Source of the DNA: a virus
Direction: 5' to 3' (one strand)
IMG/VR virus record: IMGVR_UViG_3300018080_000112
Coordinates: 32,001 to 96,000 of that record
DNA length: 64,000 bases
Shown here: positions 12,015-18,961 of the stretch, piece after piece
How positions within the stretch are numbered: position 1 is the first letter of the stretch
Layout: each line of letters starts with the position of its first letter
The notes under the pieces: generated by a model
Told to the model about the DNA's origin: nothing
Database searches by the model: none
What the model saw: the letters and a program-made list of their open reading frames with translations, nothing else
Translations under genes and position numbers: made by a program

Positions 12015-13330
12015 CGAACACCCCCTGGAACAGAAGCATCTGAGGTGAGAAATATGCTTAGAAGTTTAATGAATTCCAAACTTTGTTCTTCATCCATCAG
12101 GTATGAATCTGGCTTTTCCAGTCCCTTCCACCAAACCAGGATTGTGTAAAGGTCAACATAAGCATCTTTTTCACTGACCTCTTCTGTGGTCTCCGGTTGA
12201 CCTACCACATCCACACGATTTGTTTCTCTACTAGAACGAGCCGAACGAACATCCGACAAAACGATATGTTCCTTCCCTCCCACATCTTTTCTACTAAATG
12301 AAAAAAGTCCCTGTTTCATCTCTCAAAACTCCCAATTGTTAGGTCCTAACTTTTCAAAGCTACGGACGATTACCATTCACTCCTGGACGCTCTCTTTTCG
12401 AGCTTGGAGTGCTTCTTTTTCGACTCCGCCTCTTTCTCTTGCTCCTTTCTCTCCTGGATAGTTACGATCCACTTAGGGCGCTCTTTCATCCAGTCTGTCT
12501 TTGTGTACTTTTCCCACTGATTATTTGTGGGCTGTGTGAAAATCTTCAGATACCACCAGACATAAGACACAGCTAACACATAAATCGAATCATCAACTTC
12601 TTCTCGCTGTCGCCTCAAACACTCCGGGTCCACATCCATGGCACCAGCCAATGTTTCAAGTTCAACACGAACTCCTGGTCTTCTTGAAATTCCAGCTTTG
12701 TGAACTTTATCTCGTATCTGTTCTTTCTCAGCCAACAAGATGGTCTGTACCATCATCAAGAACTGGTTGTAATAATCTGTTGGCGAACTGATATTCATCT
12801 CTCCGCCTTTTCGACTACCCCGCTTTCCAGGTCAACCCAACCAATGAATCCATAACGCCATCCCAACCCAGCCGGAGAATCCGGTATGCGACCCGGCGGC
12901 TCTTTGAATGTATTCTGTGAACCTACGGCAAGGAATTGCATATGACCCACGTTGACCGAATCAAGAGCCATATTTTGATATACAGCCCAACGGGTATCTT
13001 CGTGGTTATACGGCGAGGTTTTCATCTCTTCGAGCGTCTCTGGCTCGACCTGTAGCGTCTTCTCTCCCATCTTATTCTCCCCTGTTACTTCGTTGTTATC
13101 TTTTCCTGAACTTCCTCCCCTTGTCATCCAACCACAACACGGGAAGATTCTCCGGACCCTTGTCCTGAATCATCAGGTCATAATCCGCCGCAAGCGTCAT
13201 CACACCCTCCAGAGTCAACTGAAATGTGTAGATAGAATCTTGCTGGACCGCTCGCGGATGTGGTGGTTTATTCCCCATCCAATGACAAACCTGAAATTTC
13301 ACCATGGCTTTTCCTATCTTAGATTCTCAA

Positions 13331-13541
13331 AGTAAATCCCCATGTATATGGGGAATACTCCAACTCGCTGTCAGAGAAGATCTCCTTGACCGGAATATCC
13401 CCATGTATATGGGGAATACAGCCACAACCGTAAAATGGTGCCAAATAAACATGGAATATCCCCATGTATATGGGGAATACGGTCATCAAGGAGACGAGCG
13501 AAATCGAGCTTGCGGAATATCCCCATGTATATGGGGAATAC
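13331..13541 (-). CRISPR. Mini CRISPR array 1: 4 repeats, 3 spacers, type I-E-like repeat
   Basis: 28-nt repeat GTATTCCCCATATACATGGGGATATTCC (minus strand) at 13514-13541, 13453-13480, 13392-13419 and a degenerate copy at 13331-13358. Three unique 33-nt spacers, 61-bp period. The degenerate copy marks the trailer, so the array reads on the minus strand. Confidence 0.95.
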
Positions 13542-13687
13542 TCTTCTTCTGTTCACCACGCTGTTTCGTATTCCTTTACACATGGATTTTACTGCTTCAC
13601 AGGCTATTGCCGTTAACGGTCTTACATAAGCCTCCACAGTCAGAACCGTCATATTCAGCCGGTTATAGAACTTAATACTCATCTTCT
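13542..13687 (-). ncRNA. TnpB omegaRNA-derived scaffold / tracrRNA-like RNA, copy 1
   Basis: Directly 3' of tnpB. The minus strand reads CTGTGGAGGCT..GTAAGACC..AGCCTGTGAAGCAG, resembling IS605 right-end RNA scaffolds, then an anti-repeat GTAAAATCCATGTGTAAAGGAATAC (13568-13592). Confidence 0.75.
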
Positions 13688-14835
13688 AAAACAGTGACGC
13701 CTTTTTGTTTTAAGATAGACGCCGCTTCTTTCCTTATGTTGATTGCTGCATTGATGTCGCGGTCATGTTTTACACGACAACAAGGACAGGTCCAGTTTCG
13801 AACAGAAAGAGGGAGTTTGTCTAACACCTCGCCGCAAACATAACAAGTTTTGCTGGAAGGAAAAAAACGATCAATTTTCACAAGGTGACCGCCGGTTCTC
13901 TGCATCCGCGTCTCAATTCTAGTTCCAAAAGCGCCCCAACTGGCGTCTGCAATCGCCTTTGACAATTTTCTGTTCTTTTGCATGTTCTTTACTTGCAAGG
14001 TTTCCAATCCCACAGCTTGTACGTCTTTCAATGTTGCTGCAATCATCTGGTGTTGATATGTCTCTCGCTTATTTGCAACCTGTGCTTCTCTCTTTGCGAC
14101 AACAATACGAGCCTTTTCTTGGTTTTTTGACCCCTTCTTCTTTCTGGAGTATTTGCGCTTCTTTCGCCGTAAATTATCTTGCGCTTTCTTCAAGAACTTA
14201 GGATTGTCAACCTTCTCTCCCTCAGACGTAATGAACAAGTGAGTCAAACCAAGGTCAAGACCCACAACATCATCAACTTCCGTTAATTTTTTCGGATACT
14301 TCAAACCATCATCAATCAACAGAGACATGTAATACTTAGCTGTAGAAGCTCTTTTTAGTGTACATGTCTTTATCTTTGCGCCGTCTGGAATATTGCGATA
14401 AACATTTGCCTTTACCCATCCGATCTTTGGAATCCAGACCCGTTTATAATCATCTGATACACGAACACCACAAGGATATCCTGCAGACTGACAATGGTTA
14501 CTTTTTTTCTTGAATTTTGGAAAATTGGCGCGTCCTTCAAAGAAGTTAACAAACGCACGATGGAGATTCATAACAGCCTGATTCATCACATCACGCGGCG
14601 CTTTTCGTAGCCACGGATTCTTTTTAATCAAGTCATTCAACCGCCGCATCATGCTATGTGCGTCTACTTTGACCCGCAAACGAATTTTTTCACCCGTGAA
14701 AGGAGATTCTTTATAGATCATCTTTCGCCATGCCAGCATATTATTAAATACCCAGCGTGACACATCAAAATGGTCCTGGAATTTCAATTTTTGTTCCTCT
14801 GTTGGTTTCAGTGGAACTTTGATTCCATACATCAT
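13672..14835 (-). CDS. tnpB: TnpB-family RNA-guided endonuclease (IS200/IS605 OrfB), CRISPR-associated
   Basis: OrfB N-terminus 'KVPLKPTEEQK..SRWVFN', 'FPKFKKK', RuvC-I 'VGLDLGL', RuvC-II 'GLETLQVKNM', zinc finger CYVC..CPCC, RuvC-III 'HDRDINAAINI'. Start MMYG at 14835 with a GGAGGAG RBS; 387 aa. Confidence 0.95.
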   Translation of the reverse strand: MMYGIKVPLKPTEEQKLKFQDHFDVSRWVFNNMLAWRKMIYKESPFTGEKIRLRVKVDAHSMMRRLNDLIKKNPWLRKAPRDVMNQAVMNLHRAFVNFFEGRANFPKFKKKSNHCQSAGYPCGVRVSDDYKRVWIPKIGWVKANVYRNIPDGAKIKTCTLKRASTAKYYMSLLIDDGLKYPKKLTEVDDVVGLDLGLTHLFITSEGEKVDNPKFLKKAQDNLRRKKRKYSRKKKGSKNQEKARIVVAKREAQVANKRETYQHQMIAATLKDVQAVGLETLQVKNMQKNRKLSKAIADASWGAFGTRIETRMQRTGGHLVKIDRFFPSSKTCYVCGEVLDKLPLSVRNWTCPCCRVKHDRDINAAINIRKEAASILKQKGVTVLEDEY

Positions 14836-14873
14836 AATCTTCGATCTCCTCCGGTTACAAAAGCACATAAAAC

Positions 14874-15084
14874 CTTATATCCCCATGTATATGGGGAATA
14901 CCTCAACCCTTCATCATCTGGGTCAAAGAGTAGGGGAATATCCCCGTGTATATGGGGAATACTCGCCGATTGGCCTGTGTGGTGAAGTCAAGTCGGGAAT
15001 ATCCCCGCGTATATGGGGAATACTTCCTGGTCCACTTTTTGTTCCTCTCGCTGGTCGGAATATCCCCGCGTATATGGGGAATAC
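14874..15084 (-). CRISPR. Mini CRISPR array 2: 4 repeats, 3 spacers
   Basis: Repeats at 15057-15084 and 14996-15023 (GTATTCCCCATATACGCGGGGATATTCC), 14935-14962 (..ATACACGGGG..) and a degenerate copy at 14874-14901. The 33-nt spacers all differ from those of array 1. Confidence 0.95.
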
Positions 15085-15230
15085 TCTTCTTCTGTTCACC
15101 ACGCTGTTTCGTATTCCTTTACACACGGATTTTACTGCTTCACAGGCTATTGCCGTTAACGGTCTTATATAAGCCTCCACAGTCAGAACCGTCATATTCA
15201 GCCGGTTATAGAACTTAATACTCATCTTCT
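15085..15230 (-). ncRNA. TnpB omegaRNA-derived scaffold / tracrRNA-like RNA, copy 2
   Basis: 146-bp direct repeat of 13542-13687 with 2 substitutions. Includes the last tnpB codons (EDEY*) and an anti-repeat at 15111-15135. Confidence 0.75.
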
Positions 15231-16270
15231 TAAACGACCACACCAGGTGCAATACTGTTGACCATACTCACCGGGCGCTCGACTCTTGACCCAACTGTGA
15301 AATCGTCCTGGAACAGGATGGTTCGAACACACCTCGTTATCACAAGGGAAAAAATCATCCACTTTTTCAATTCTTTCCTTCCAGGTCCCATCTGGCTGGA
15401 GTTCCTTGAACACACGCTTTCCTGGCTTGCCTTTAGGTTGTTCAATAGATGCCACCACAGCATCCACAATCTCCGCGTCTTCCATAGGTTCCGTATTCTC
15501 AGCCAGACCAGAAAACGGGTCCGTGTCTCTCGACAAACCGCCGGGTCGGAAATCAAGAGGCATCTGCACCTCTGGCGGCTCGCGGTCTCCAAACAACTCT
15601 CGAATAGGAGCCAGGACCTCGTTAATGTGTGGGCGCACCGCATCTTCCGCTTCACGTAGCACTTGACGCGCCATATCTGCAACTTTCAGGTCCTTGTCTC
15701 CCGGCGGAAACTCACCGCGCCGAGAGAGGCGCTTATAAGCCGCAACAATAGGTTCATCACCGGAAGGGTCTTCTGGTACTTCCCACAACGACAAAGGTCT
15801 CTTAGGAGACTCTGGCGGCTCAATTTTGACCTGTTTCGGTCGTATGAAACGCAGATCAAACTCATCTTTGCCTGTAGAGATCTCATTCATCTCCTTCACC
15901 AGGTCTTCAATCAAAGAACCACTTCTGTTCCGACTCATCTCTCAGGCTCCTTTAGCAATCCAGCGGCTCTTTTGTGAAAAGCAAAACCATTGGCGACTCC
16001 GCTCGCTGTTCTTGCAAAAGCTGATGCAAGACCAGAGCCATAGCACCAGTAAAGACAGGGGGACCAATAAGCTCTCCACACTCATCCACTACATCTTCAC
16101 AAAGCTCATCCAACCGTCGCTGAACACCCTTGATCAATTCTTCAGCTTCGTCCTCTTCCTGGAGTTCTCTCAAGTACACATGAGAAGCACCCAACAACAA
16201 CTTCAAGAGTTCTTGTCCCTCATCCAGGATCTTCTCAATGTCCAGCGCACCGTCATCCAGAGAATACTTG

Positions 16271-16525
16271 TCAGTCACCTTGTTGTCTTTCATGATCACT
16301 TCTCCGCACCGAAAACGATGCACTCTTTGTTTTGCCCACAGTCACTTCATGGTCACCCACCGGTAAAGTCTGACCAAGCTTGGTTATCTTCCGCTGGTCA
16401 ACCGACACAGCGCCTTGTGCAAGCAATCGCCGGGATTGGCTTACACTCTGCGTCAAGCCAATTTCACGAAGCATCTGTTCAAGTATCTGGTCTTCTTCGA
16501 ACTCTTTCTTTTCTTGTTCTGTCAT
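16271..16525 (-). CDS. Stand-alone S4-type RNA-binding domain protein (TyrRS C-terminal-like)
   Basis: 'LREIGLTQSVSQSRRLLAQGAVSVDQRKIT..LPVGDHEVTVGK' matches the S4 pattern GL..S..eARRLI.QGAV.vdg.ki. Confidence 0.65.
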   Translation of the reverse strand: MTEQEKKEFEEDQILEQMLREIGLTQSVSQSRRLLAQGAVSVDQRKITKLGQTLPVGDHEVTVGKTKSASFSVRRSDHERQQGD

Positions 16526-18961
16526 CGTAGAACCTTTCGTTGATGTTAGTAGAGACACACCTTTTTCCAAAGCTCTACCACTAAAAATTCAAAATTATGG
16601 TTTTGGTTGTGGATCATCCCCCCACAACAGATCCGCCGCCTTCTTGATGTTCTCTTGATGTTTCTCCGGTGACCAGTCCTTCTTCTTTCTGGTAATCGGG
16701 TCAAACCAGTCCACACGAAACAGAGAGTTCAACAACATGGCGAGAACAGAACCTTCCTTCTCCGACAACAACAAACGGTCATGAAAAAACCGCAACATTT
16801 TTTTCATCAACCCGTGTGATGGTTCGTCAATTTGCTCGTATAGCTTATACAGCGCATCAGCATCCACCAATAACGACATCGCAGATGATTGCAGTTTTCC
16901 AGACTCCGGGTCTGGCGGAAGCAAGATCGGAACAATCTTGTACGTCGCATTGTCCAGCCCCCGCGAGCCATCCGCGCCGCGATACTCCCGATCCATCCAA
17001 GCAAGCGCATCCTCCGGGCTATCAAACAAACACCGCCGTCCGTGATCGGGTCCGTCATGACCCCAGACACCCTTCCATACCAGCAATAGATACTTCATCT
17101 CGCTCTCCTTTTAGGACCCTATTGATAATAAACACTCTGATCTGGAGAACTAAAGCTTTTGTTTTTCATGAGAATCTCTCTCCAGAATCAAAGTGTTTAT
17201 TTTAGGCTGTTGACTTACCTCTGAATAACAGTCAACCCCGTTCCGTAACACAGACTCCAGGGGGACCAATCCGCCCAATATGCGTCAAGATTTTGATCTT
17301 TGCCTTTGGCGGTTTGGCAAACCCATGCCAGCGCTGGTGGATCTTGCTCAGAACATCCTCTTCGCTCATACAAGCCTCATCTGTGAACTTGTAGCCGCGC
17401 CCTTTTGTGTTCTTCCAGACATGCAAGCCATCATGACCTTCTTTCAACAGACACCGGGTTCCAAACATCCCATGACGGGATTGACACTGTTGATCTGACA
17501 AGCGAGCTTGCTCTTCCTCCTGGTACTTCCCTTTCCAGTTCTCCGGCGTACCTGGAACAAACTGTTCACAGGTCTCACAAACATGACCATTCCCTTCCAT
17601 ATCCCCCATCACAGGACCCGCACAAGTCAAAACTTGGTTCAGCGGTGGTCCCCCCGTCATACGCTCCCCCGTGAAAAAGGGAGACATTCGACAAAACCAT
17701 CGGCTCGGTAATGGTGCGCTCATATCCTCACTCCTGTCTAAAAATGCGTTTGAATTGTTCAAAGGAAATGATGTCGCCAGCTTGCGGACCCACATGGAAA
17801 CGAGATTTGAGAATCTTGACCATCCCGTTGTCATCCAGTGCGCAGACCTCCGCTTTTGCGACAATCTCATAAGAGCCGCCAACATCCACATCTGTGATCT
17901 CTTTCAGCGGTTTGTCTCTTGCAGATTGTCGTAGATCAGACCTGTTCAATAGTTTGAGCGCCATCTTATTTCCTTTCCTTGAATGTATGTGGTTTGTCTT
18001 TCTCCGGTACGATGTGGATTTGATAGTTTCCACGATGTGGCGGAGGCAAGAACACACGGATCACGTCATAGTGTTCCGAAAAGTGTTCGCCGCTCGCTCG
18101 TAAGCTCTCTGTGTCAAAATGAATCCGTTCCAGCAACTCCATCAACAAGCCGCTGAGACGCATTGAATCAGTGATCTTCATCTGATGTTCGTAGGGGCGG
18201 ACCTCCGCGATATCCTCACAGAACTCATCCATCTTCTCTTGAAGTGCAGCTTCGCGCTCTTTGAGACCCGCAAGCTCTCGCTCTTTGTGGCGAATCTCTA
18301 TCTCCATCATCTCGATTTTGTAGCGCTGTGTTCGTATTTCCTGCGCCAAGTGCTTGGAGGTCCTGTGTAATAGATTGATCATGACTTCCTCCCTTCAAAG
18401 AACTGCGACCACTCTTCCAGGTCTCGTTTGACGCAATCAAGAGCACCAGAGTGCCGAAGAGCGCCGCGTAGCTCACCATCCGAGAAGTAGGTCTGAGCGG
18501 TCTCCAGAATCGCCGTCACGATGTTCTGACGGTCTCCTGTGAGGGGATGCGCCTCCATGTGTTGCTTGAACTGTTCTTGAATGGCTTGCAGAGTCTCTTG
18601 ATCAATCATGATCACACCTTTGGTTGATAGTGTTGACAGTTGCAGAGTTCGCCTTCTCCGACCTTCTTCACACAGCCTTGATCCCAATGCGCCACCTTGC
18701 GATGTCCACACTCCGGACACCATTCGTAACCCATAGCGCAAGGACGGGCGCAGATACCGAACACCGTAATTTCTCCCCCGCTCCCTAGCCAGCGGCGTAC
18801 CAGATCGTCACCCTTCCAATGACTCGGCATCTTCAATTGACAGCGGTCCAGCCCGGTCCCAATCTCGACACATAAAGCGTTCGCCGGTCGTCTCTCTGTC
18901 TCCATCGCGAGGCGATATTGACATGTGTTGGCGAACTCACTGAAGGCTTGCGCATCTGGTT

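What the first reader, a model, noticed from the sequence alone, without database searches (positions are those of the whole stretch)
13593..13671. The array 'leader' is a recognisable TnpB omegaRNA core, not an AT-rich CRISPR leader
Seen (minus strand): AACCG-GCTGAATATGA-CGGTT hairpin, then ACTG-TGG-AGGCT-TATGTAAGA-CCGTTAACGG-CAAT-AGCCT-GTGAAG-CAGT, which gives nested helices ACTG/CAGT, AGGCT/AGCCT and CCGT/ACGG. From my recollection of IS605-family right ends, CTGTGGAG..GTAAGAC..GAAGCAG is their typical pattern, normally followed by the terminal hairpin and the transposon end. Here the anti-repeat follows at exactly that position. Inference: this is a snapshot of an omegaRNA splitting into tracrRNA and crRNA.
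Basis: partly seen in the sequence, partly recalled or inferred. Interest (0 to 1): 0.8.

Follow-up and report, generated by a model that had tools for sequence, protein, structure and literature searches.

The report
Phage TnpB tracrRNA derived from omegaRNA
The stretch in front of this phage's small CRISPR array is the guide-RNA scaffold of a transposon nuclease (TnpB) whose last hairpin has been swapped for a sequence that pairs with the repeats, a clear natural example of the recently described step from transposon guide RNA to CRISPR.

Summary
Observation confirmed. They are not unusually stable (z -0.4). The support comes from homology. A covariance model built only from the 3' ends of 13 ordinary TnpB genes hits the 64-kb window twice: here (47 bits, E 3e-11) and at a near-identical second copy at 15104-15232.

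Stems 1-3 of the omegaRNA are kept: 23 of 26 pairs, 10 through changes on both sides. The terminal stem 4 and the transposon end are gone. In their place is an anti-repeat that forms a 17-bp duplex with the CRISPR repeat. The loop of stem 1 (GAAUAU) is complementary to the repeat's 3' tail (AUAUUC), which recreates the omegaRNA pseudoknot.

The effector is a 387-aa TnpB with an intact active site, 40-49% identical to ordinary TnpBs. None of 160 related loci has a coupled array.

The repeats are in type I-E format (28 nt, 61-bp period, 16-20 of 28 identical to I-E repeats). The crRNA half therefore looks captured, not split off the omegaRNA.

The principle is published (TranC, Cell 2025; Cas12r preprint). 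This scan has noted similar phage loci on other DNA. I class it as a new variant of a known kind.

The parts
13672..14835 (-). tnpB-like effector gene, 387 aa from the ATG at 14835 (GGAGG ribosome site upstream). The longest ORF starts at 14868 (398 aa).
   Evidence: Pfam HTH_OrfB_IS605, OrfB_IS605 and Cas12f1-like_TNB. PHROG 506, E 6e-109. RuvC D205/E289/D371 and four zinc-finger Cys fall in invariant or nearly invariant columns. Homologues start at residue 12. P0002 is the 387-aa form.
13561..13688 (-). tracrRNA gene 1: an omegaRNA-derived scaffold plus anti-repeat (extent of the covariance-model match)
   Evidence: R1 hit at 47.3 bits, E 2.8e-11. 23 of 26 pairs of stems 1-3 are kept, 10 of them by double changes.
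13644..13664 (-). Stem 1 (AACCG / CGGTT). Its 11-nt loop holds GAATAT (13656-13651), the proposed pseudoknot strand that pairs with repeat nt 22-27 (ATATTC).
   Evidence: Loop-tail complement: p about 0.003 for random 7-mers and 0.02 for permuted tails. Relatives pair loop GGACU or GGAACU with tail AGUCAC or AGUUCAC. ISDra2 architecture from PMC10097598.
13591..13640 (-). Stems 2, 3a and 3b of the scaffold (ACTG/CAGT, AGGCT/AGCCT, CCGT/ACGG), with the conserved GGAGGC, GTAAGAC and GAAGCAG boxes
13568..13586 (-). Anti-repeat. 13586-13577 pairs with repeat nt 11-20 (10 bp, the position of omegaRNA stem 4). 13574-13568 pairs with repeat nt 1-7 (7 bp).
   Evidence: Duplex of -21.6 kcal/mol against -10.5 for the repeat's own hairpin. 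Model stem 4 is not formed in cis.
13542..13567 (-). 26-nt linker between the anti-repeat and the first repeat. No terminator-like site, so tracr and array are probably one primary transcript.
13331..13541 (-). CRISPR array 1: four 28-nt repeats (the last one degenerate in its 3' tail) and three 33-nt spacers, period 61
15104..15232 (-). tracrRNA gene 2, a duplicate that includes the last tnpB codons. Its anti-repeat reads CCGTGT instead of CCATGT.
   Evidence: R1 hit at 45.8 bits, E 7e-11. Sequence. The cognate duplex is about 3.5 kcal/mol better than the non-cognate one.
14874..15084 (-). CRISPR array 2: four repeats (variants ACGC, ACGC, ACAC, ACAT from leader to trailer) and three 33-nt spacers
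15222..15938 (-). Upstream ORF of 238 aa with no known family. Its stop codon comes from the duplicated tnpB 3' remnant.

Best explanation
Window 13561-13688 (minus strand) encodes a tracrRNA that descends from the omegaRNA of an ISDra2-like TnpB.

Shown:
- Stems 1, 2, 3a and 3b of the omegaRNA scaffold are retained and now lie downstream of a shortened tnpB reading frame.
- Stem 4 and the transposon right end are absent.
- In the place of stem 4 stands an anti-repeat complementary to the adjacent CRISPR repeat.
- The loop of stem 1 is complementary to the last bases of the repeat.

Inferred mechanism:
- The locus is transcribed as one unit: ORF238, tracr2, array 2, tnpB, tracr1, array 1.
- The anti-repeat pairs with repeat nt 1-20. 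This rebuilds stem 4 in trans, with a 7-bp extension that could be a processing site.
- Repeat nt 22-27 pair with the stem-1 loop and rebuild the pseudoknot.
- The 387-aa TnpB (intact RuvC and zinc finger) binds this two-piece guide as it would an omegaRNA and cuts DNA matching the 33-nt spacer, probably using its first 16-20 nt.
- For the first spacer of each array, the same pairing can form in cis, like a natural single guide.

Origin of the arrays:
- They have type I-E format, and the phage record holds no cas1 or cas2.
- The crRNA half was most likely taken over from a pre-existing I-E-type array, and spacers were added by a host I-E Cas1-Cas2.
- The scaffold's two contact sites then adapted to that repeat.
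For: - Homology of the scaffold: model R1, built without the window, gives only two hits in 144 kb, E 3e-11 and 7e-11. The same model hits the 3' end of tnpB in 38 of 80 viral relatives and nowhere else but one weak place.
- Structure kept by covariation: 23 of 26 pairs in stems 1-3, 10 of them changed on both sides against the commonest pair. In relatives this region is translated; here it lies after the stop codon, so protein constraint cannot explain it.
- Stem 4 is lost and replaced: only 4 of 8 forced pairs form. The anti-repeat:repeat duplex has 17 bp at -21.6 kcal/mol.
- One compensatory change separates the two cassettes: CCAUGU with ACAUGG, and CCGUGU with ACGCGG or ACACGG.
- Pseudoknot: loop GAAUAU against tail AUAUUC, p 0.003-0.02. 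Across 69 relatives, loop-tail complementarity exceeds shuffles (mean 4.17 against 3.47 +/- 0.11). The ISDra2 structure places the pseudoknot and stem 4 at these positions and calls the stem-4 loop a natural sgRNA linker (PMC10097598).
- The effector looks active and is closest to ISDra2 TnpB (E 2.5e-49 over nearly the full length).
- I-E format: E. coli and 12 further I-E arrays all have period 61, and 12 of these 13 repeats share 16-20 of 28 positions with the window repeat in the same register.
- No Cas1, Cas2 or Y1 TnpA in the record.
- The locus layout is confirmed by a separate 3284-nt contig with one mismatch and by a run X1 contig spanning 13658-15099.
Against: - There are no expression or processing data, and the ends of the RNAs are unknown.
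- No protospacer was found, so no target and no TAM/PAM is known.
- Folding energy alone is not significant.
- The anti-repeat covariation rests on a single change between two copies.
- The pseudoknot complement is AT-rich, and its p-value depends on the null used: 0.09 if the whole 91-nt scaffold is allowed.
- The alignment used for the pair counts was fitted to the model's structure.
- No host and no matching I-E array were found, so the capture scenario and host-driven adaptation are inferences.
- All runs laid carry the same spacers, so ongoing acquisition is not shown.
Confidence: 0.82

Rival explanations
1. Pure splitting: the array arose de novo by serial duplication of the omegaRNA 3' segment (stem 4 3' strand, pseudoknot strand and guide). 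The likeness to I-E repeats is convergence on a CCCC...GGGG hairpin.
For: Relatives' stem 4 also reads GCCCCGC..GCGGGGAG, followed by 7-9 nt before the guide, so the two formats are alike by nature. De novo origin is the scenario that PMC10691335 leans towards. The array lies downstream of the gene, as an omegaRNA does.
Against: The repeat matches I-E repeats far above shuffles but matches relatives' stem 4 plus tail no better than shuffles. All six spacers are exactly 33 nt with a 61-bp period, as in 13 of 13 I-E arrays. The repeat's 5' third (GTATTCC) has no counterpart in the omegaRNA.
Confidence: 0.15
2. The I-E-format arrays serve the host's Cascade, as a phage mini-array that borrows host interference. 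The TnpB scaffold beside them is a decaying transposon remnant with no role as tracrRNA.
For: The repeat format is I-E and the phage has no cas genes. A natural variant lacks tnpB but keeps one scaffold and array 1.
Against: Two separate complementarities link the scaffold to the repeat, at the positions of the omegaRNA's stem 4 and pseudoknot, with one compensatory change. Stems 1-3 are kept by double changes outside any reading frame. The whole scaffold-plus-array cassette was duplicated as a unit. In array 2 the repeat's own hairpin is weakened to 5 pairs, which would not help recognition of a hairpin.
Confidence: 0.07
3. An ordinary mobile IS605-family element: the scaffold is a normal omegaRNA and the repeats are unrelated neighbours.
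For: The protein is a typical TnpB. One relative, L030, does sit beside an unrelated array.
Against: Stem 4 and the conserved GTCAC or GTTCAC end are missing. There is no TnpA in the record. The record holds one tnpB copy. The repeat starts 26 nt after the anti-repeat.
Confidence: 0.02
4. Chance resemblance: the stretch is a plain CRISPR leader.
For: Folding energy is not above shuffles. There is no Rfam hit.
Against: E 3e-11 with a model built without the window. Near-identical boxes occur in the nearest TnpB tails.
Confidence: 0.01

Closest known systems
TranC, transposon-CRISPR intermediates (Jin et al., Cell 2025, doi 10.1016/j.cell.2025.09.004; known to me only through PMC13565253 and bioRxiv 10.64898/2026.03.27.714800)
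   Same: A TnpB-sized or TnpB-like nuclease next to a short CRISPR array without adaptation genes. The transposon right-end RNA works as a tracrRNA paired with crRNA. Some members are phage-borne (CauTranC9) and lack the TnpB C-terminal tail.
   Different: TranC repeats reported there are 32-38 nt; here they are 28 nt in I-E format. The solved LaTranC matches only the RuvC part (E 2e-29), while ISDra2 TnpB matches nearly the full length (E 2.5e-49). Here two scaffold-plus-array cassettes flank the gene. I could not test clade membership, because the paper and its sequences are not held.
ISDra2 TnpB with its omegaRNA (PDB 8H1J, 8EXA; PMC10097598)
   Same: Nearly full-length protein similarity. 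The same RNA plan: stem 1 with a pseudoknot strand in its loop, stems 2 and 3, then stem 4 and a short tail before the guide.
   Different: Stem 4 is made in trans by two RNAs. There is no transposon end and no TnpA. The scaffold lies outside the reading frame. Guides come from an array.
Cas12r-CRISPR of Thermus Lalka phages (bioRxiv 10.64898/2026.04.20.719267)
   Same: A phage-encoded, TnpB-derived effector followed by a short array of I-E-like 29-bp repeats with 31-33-nt spacers and no adaptation genes. The authors propose that the host's I-E module adds the spacers.
   Different: Cas12r has 564 aa, works with crRNA alone (no tracrRNA found) and has only a 15-bp gap between gene and array. 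Here the effector has 387 aa and a 130-nt omegaRNA-derived scaffold with an anti-repeat. Protein relatedness was not tested.
Cas12f (type V-F) with its tracrRNA
   Same: A miniature effector. The dual guide has two repeat:anti-repeat contacts, one of which is the pseudoknot (PMC10097598).
   Different: Only weak protein similarity (E 1e-3 to 1e-6). Cas12f acts as a dimer with longer repeats, from my own knowledge of the family.

Membership tests
TnpB / OrfB_IS605 protein family | HTH_OrfB, OrfB_IS605 (RuvC) and zinc-ribbon domains with a D-E-D triad and a CxxC..CxxC motif | tested here: met
   40-49% identity to thousands of TnpBs.
OMEGA system (TnpB with omegaRNA inside an IS200/IS605 element) | omegaRNA scaffold at the 3' end of tnpB | tested here: met
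   Stems 1-3: R1 hit E 2.8e-11, 23 of 26 pairs
OMEGA system (TnpB with omegaRNA inside an IS200/IS605 element) | Terminal stem 4 and conserved right end (GTCAC or GTTCAC) directly followed by the guide | tested here: not met
   Stem 4 is not formed in cis and the end motif is absent
OMEGA system (TnpB with omegaRNA inside an IS200/IS605 element) | Mobile element: TnpA or several copies | tested here: not met
   No Y1 TnpA in the 144-kb record (89% complete). One tnpB copy. A serine-recombinase TnpA was not searched for.
TranC (transposon-CRISPR intermediate) | TnpB-like nuclease adjacent to a CRISPR array, with a tracrRNA homologous to the right-end RNA | tested here: met
TranC (transposon-CRISPR intermediate) | Cleavage guided by the tracrRNA:crRNA pair (and by a fused right-end RNA) | not testable with these tools
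   Needs expression and interference assays
TranC (transposon-CRISPR intermediate) | Placement in one of the published clades | not tested
   The paper and its sequences are not held. LaTranC is more distant than ISDra2 TnpB.
Type I-E CRISPR array format | 28-29-nt repeat of the form GT.TTCCCC-N8-GGGGAT..CC with a 61-bp period | tested here: met
Type I-E CRISPR array format | Repeat hairpin with a 6-7-bp stem; cas genes of type I-E nearby | tested here: not met
   The hairpin is intact in array 1 but weakened to 5 pairs in the non-terminal repeats of array 2. No Cas1 or Cas2 found.
Rfam families (including HEARO and IS605-orfB) | Match to any Rfam model | tested here: not met
   No relevant hit at E up to 10. 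The control shows that relatives' omegaRNAs are not covered by Rfam either.

The most novel reading that the evidence does not exclude
This locus records a route to type V CRISPR that the literature leaves open (PMC10691335: insertion near a pre-existing array 'cannot be ruled out'). An otherwise ordinary 387-aa TnpB kept its omegaRNA scaffold. It rewired only the scaffold's two contact sites, the stem-4 strand and the stem-1 loop, so that it reads crRNAs from class 1, type I-E-format arrays that the host's Cas1-Cas2 fills. Array capture plus retuning of the RNA, rather than duplication of the omegaRNA, would then have made the CRISPR system, with no change in the protein's architecture.
Probability: 0.45. 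Interest if true: 0.7.

Novelty: new variant of a known kind. Interest (0 to 1): 0.55.

Why it matters
The origin of Cas12 guide RNAs from TnpB omegaRNA is now an accepted idea. Examples in which the tracrRNA can still be aligned, helix by helix, with the omegaRNAs of ordinary TnpBs are rare and useful. Here every element can be assigned: stems 1-3 are kept, the stem-4 loop is opened, and the pseudoknot is retuned. The effector is still TnpB-sized and close to the well-studied ISDra2 enzyme. That makes concrete experiments possible, such as fusing the two RNAs back together or swapping the two contact sites. The I-E-format repeats bear on whether type V arrays arose de novo or by capture. The system is also a very compact candidate nuclease with a short, well-defined dual guide.

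Tried and rejected
- Rfam scans of the locus gave only chance-level hits. Scans of related TnpB loci also gave nothing. Rfam CRISPR-DR models barely see even the E. coli I-E repeats (14.5 bits) and gave nothing for array 2. Rfam therefore cannot decide anything here.
- No close relatives of the protein were found in IMG/VR by exact peptide patterns.
- Exact and degenerate repeat patterns found nothing in IMG/VR. In JGI metagenomes they gave five single, non-array matches, taken as chance.
- Spacer targets: no self-match beyond 16 nt in the 144-kb record, nothing credible in GenBank phages, and no exact 22-mers of spacers S1 and S4 in IMG/VR.
- No RNA holder was listed among public runs, so expression could not be examined.
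- A first pseudoknot test used a fixed 5-mer in a fixed distance window. It was poorly designed for scaffolds of variable length (14 of 71 loci against 4.2 expected) and was replaced by the test.
- Folding-energy z-scores are not significant.
- The Cell 2025 TranC paper and the supplement of the 2026 preprint are not held, so clade assignment was not possible.

Full report
**Setting.** The window is part of a 144-kb IMG/VR virus record, 89% complete. It is found in marine sediment and seawater metagenomes. On the minus strand the locus reads as follows:
- ORF of 238 aa (15938-15222)
- scaffold 2 (15232-15104)
- array 2 (15084-14874)
- tnpB (14835-13672)
- scaffold 1 (13688-13561)
- array 1 (13541-13331)

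A separately assembled 3284-nt contig carries the whole arrangement with one mismatch.

**The observation.** Their stability is ordinary: z is -0.39 for the core and -0.95 and -0.51 for longer stretches. By folding energy alone the finding would not stand.

**Homology to omegaRNA.**
- The protein is a typical TnpB, 40-49% identical to thousands of others.
- I fetched the 3' ends of its nearest relatives and of 80 genomic and 80 viral relatives.
- The nearest relatives carry almost the same string as the window (GGAGGC, GTAAG.C, a variable hairpin, GCCTG.GAAGCA). In them it is followed by GAAGCCCC-loop-GGGGAG.AGTCAC and the element's end.
- An alignment of 13 such ends gives a consensus structure of 34 pairs, 20 with compensatory changes.
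- The covariance model built from it, without the window, hits the window only twice: 13561-13688 (47.3 bits, E 2.8e-11) and 15104-15232 (45.8 bits). The same holds for the whole record.
- The model hits the same position at the end of tnpB in 38 of 80 viral relatives.
- Rfam has no family for this RNA.

**What is kept and what is replaced.**
- Aligned to the model, the window keeps 23 of 26 pairs of stems 1-3. Ten of these differ on both sides from the commonest pair in relatives (the alignment is fitted to the model, which favours pairing).
- In relatives this region is the translated 3' end of tnpB. Here the frame stops 7 nt before stem 1, and the protein lacks the last 25-35 residues. The conservation is therefore at the RNA level.
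- Model positions for stem 4 and the GTCAC end are not satisfied.
- The ISDra2 structure paper describes stem 1, a pseudoknot between the stem-1 loop and nt -5 to -3, stems 2 and 3, and stem 4. It calls the stem-4 UUUA loop a natural link between a tracr-like and a crRNA-like half (PMC10097598).
- In the window, the bases at the position of the stem-4 5' strand (13586-13577) pair with repeat nt 11-20. A further 7 nt (13574-13568) pair with repeat nt 1-7. Together this is 17 bp at -21.6 kcal/mol, against -10.5 for the repeat's own hairpin.
- The two cassettes differ here by one compensatory change: CCAUGU with ACAUGG, and CCGUGU with ACGCGG or ACACGG. This is worth about 3.5 kcal/mol.
- The stem-1 loop contains GAAUAU, the exact complement of repeat nt 22-27 (AUAUUC), which end one base before the spacer. 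Relatives pair loop GGACU or GGAACU with tail AGUCAC or AGUUCAC. The chance of the window's match is 0.003 for random tails and 0.02 for permuted tails. The terminal, degenerate repeats lose this tail.

Both contacts that an omegaRNA makes with its own 3' end are thus made here with the CRISPR repeat.

**The crRNA half.**
- The repeat has 28 nt. All six spacers have 33 nt, so the period is 61.
- The E. coli K-12 I-E array and 12 arrays next to I-E-type cas2 genes in sampled Gammaproteobacteria all have period 61.
- Twelve of these 13 repeats share 16-20 of 28 positions with the window repeat in the same register. The mean is 18, against 7.1 +/- 1.9 for shuffles, and no shuffle in 5000 reaches the observed value.
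- The repeat does not resemble relatives' stem 4 plus tail above shuffles.
- The record has no Cas1, Cas2 or Y1 TnpA.

I therefore read the arrays as I-E-format arrays taken over by the TnpB, with spacers probably added by a host module. This part is inference: no host array was found, and all runs laid carry the same spacers.

I reached the I-E reading before looking at earlier notes (note).

**Uniqueness among relatives.** Of 160 related TnpB loci, none has a coupled array. One, L030, lies next to an unrelated array and keeps a complete omegaRNA. The nearest solved structures are ISDra2 TnpB over nearly the full length. LaTranC, Cas12n and Cas12f are more distant.

**Population variant.** Contigs from two runs of two studies join 13583 to 15127. 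This removes tnpB and array 2 by recombination between the two scaffold copies. Another run carries the full form.

**Comparison with what is known.** The principle, right-end RNA becoming tracrRNA plus crRNA, is published as TranC (Jin et al., Cell 2025). It was foreseen from the ISDra2 structure. Phage-borne TnpB-sized members exist (CauTranC9). I-E-like repeats with a phage TnpB derivative are described for Cas12r, which needs no tracrRNA.

This locus combines the two: an omegaRNA-derived tracrRNA that reads I-E-format repeats, in duplicate. It is still alignable with canonical omegaRNAs. This scan has noted similar phage loci on other DNA.

**Verdict.** The reading is right about the scaffold and needs adjusting about the origin of the repeats. 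It is a new variant of a known kind, of moderate interest.

Noticed in passing
window 13583 joined to 15127: In contigs of two public runs from two studies, the 1543 bp between the two scaffold copies (tnpB and array 2) are missing. This leaves ORF238, one hybrid scaffold and array 1. It is a natural deletion variant, or possibly an assembly path through the 146-nt repeat.
   Followed up: partly
window 15222-15236: The duplicated cassette begins with the last codons of tnpB (GAAGATGAGTATTAA). These now supply the stop codon of the unrelated 238-aa ORF upstream.
   Followed up: partly
window 13337-13354: The degenerate last repeat of array 1, followed by TTTACTTTGA, scores as a terminator-like site. 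It may end the transcript of the locus.
   Followed up: no
window 14874-15084: Repeat variants in array 2 run ACGC, ACGC, ACAC, ACAT from leader to trailer. The leader-proximal form is the one closest to the I-E consensus (GCGGGG) and weakens the repeat's own hairpin.
   Followed up: partly
L030 2946-3990: A Spirulina subsalsa TnpB with a complete omegaRNA lies about 350 nt from a 15-repeat CRISPR array of about 72-bp period. This looks like a plain insertion next to an array, that is, the raw material for capture.
   Followed up: no
window 12370-13127 and 15952-17098: The ORFs flanking the locus have no PHROG family. The tnpB region has a lower G+C content (0.40-0.44) than its surroundings (about 0.47-0.57).
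   Followed up: no
I did not examine it.
   Followed up: no
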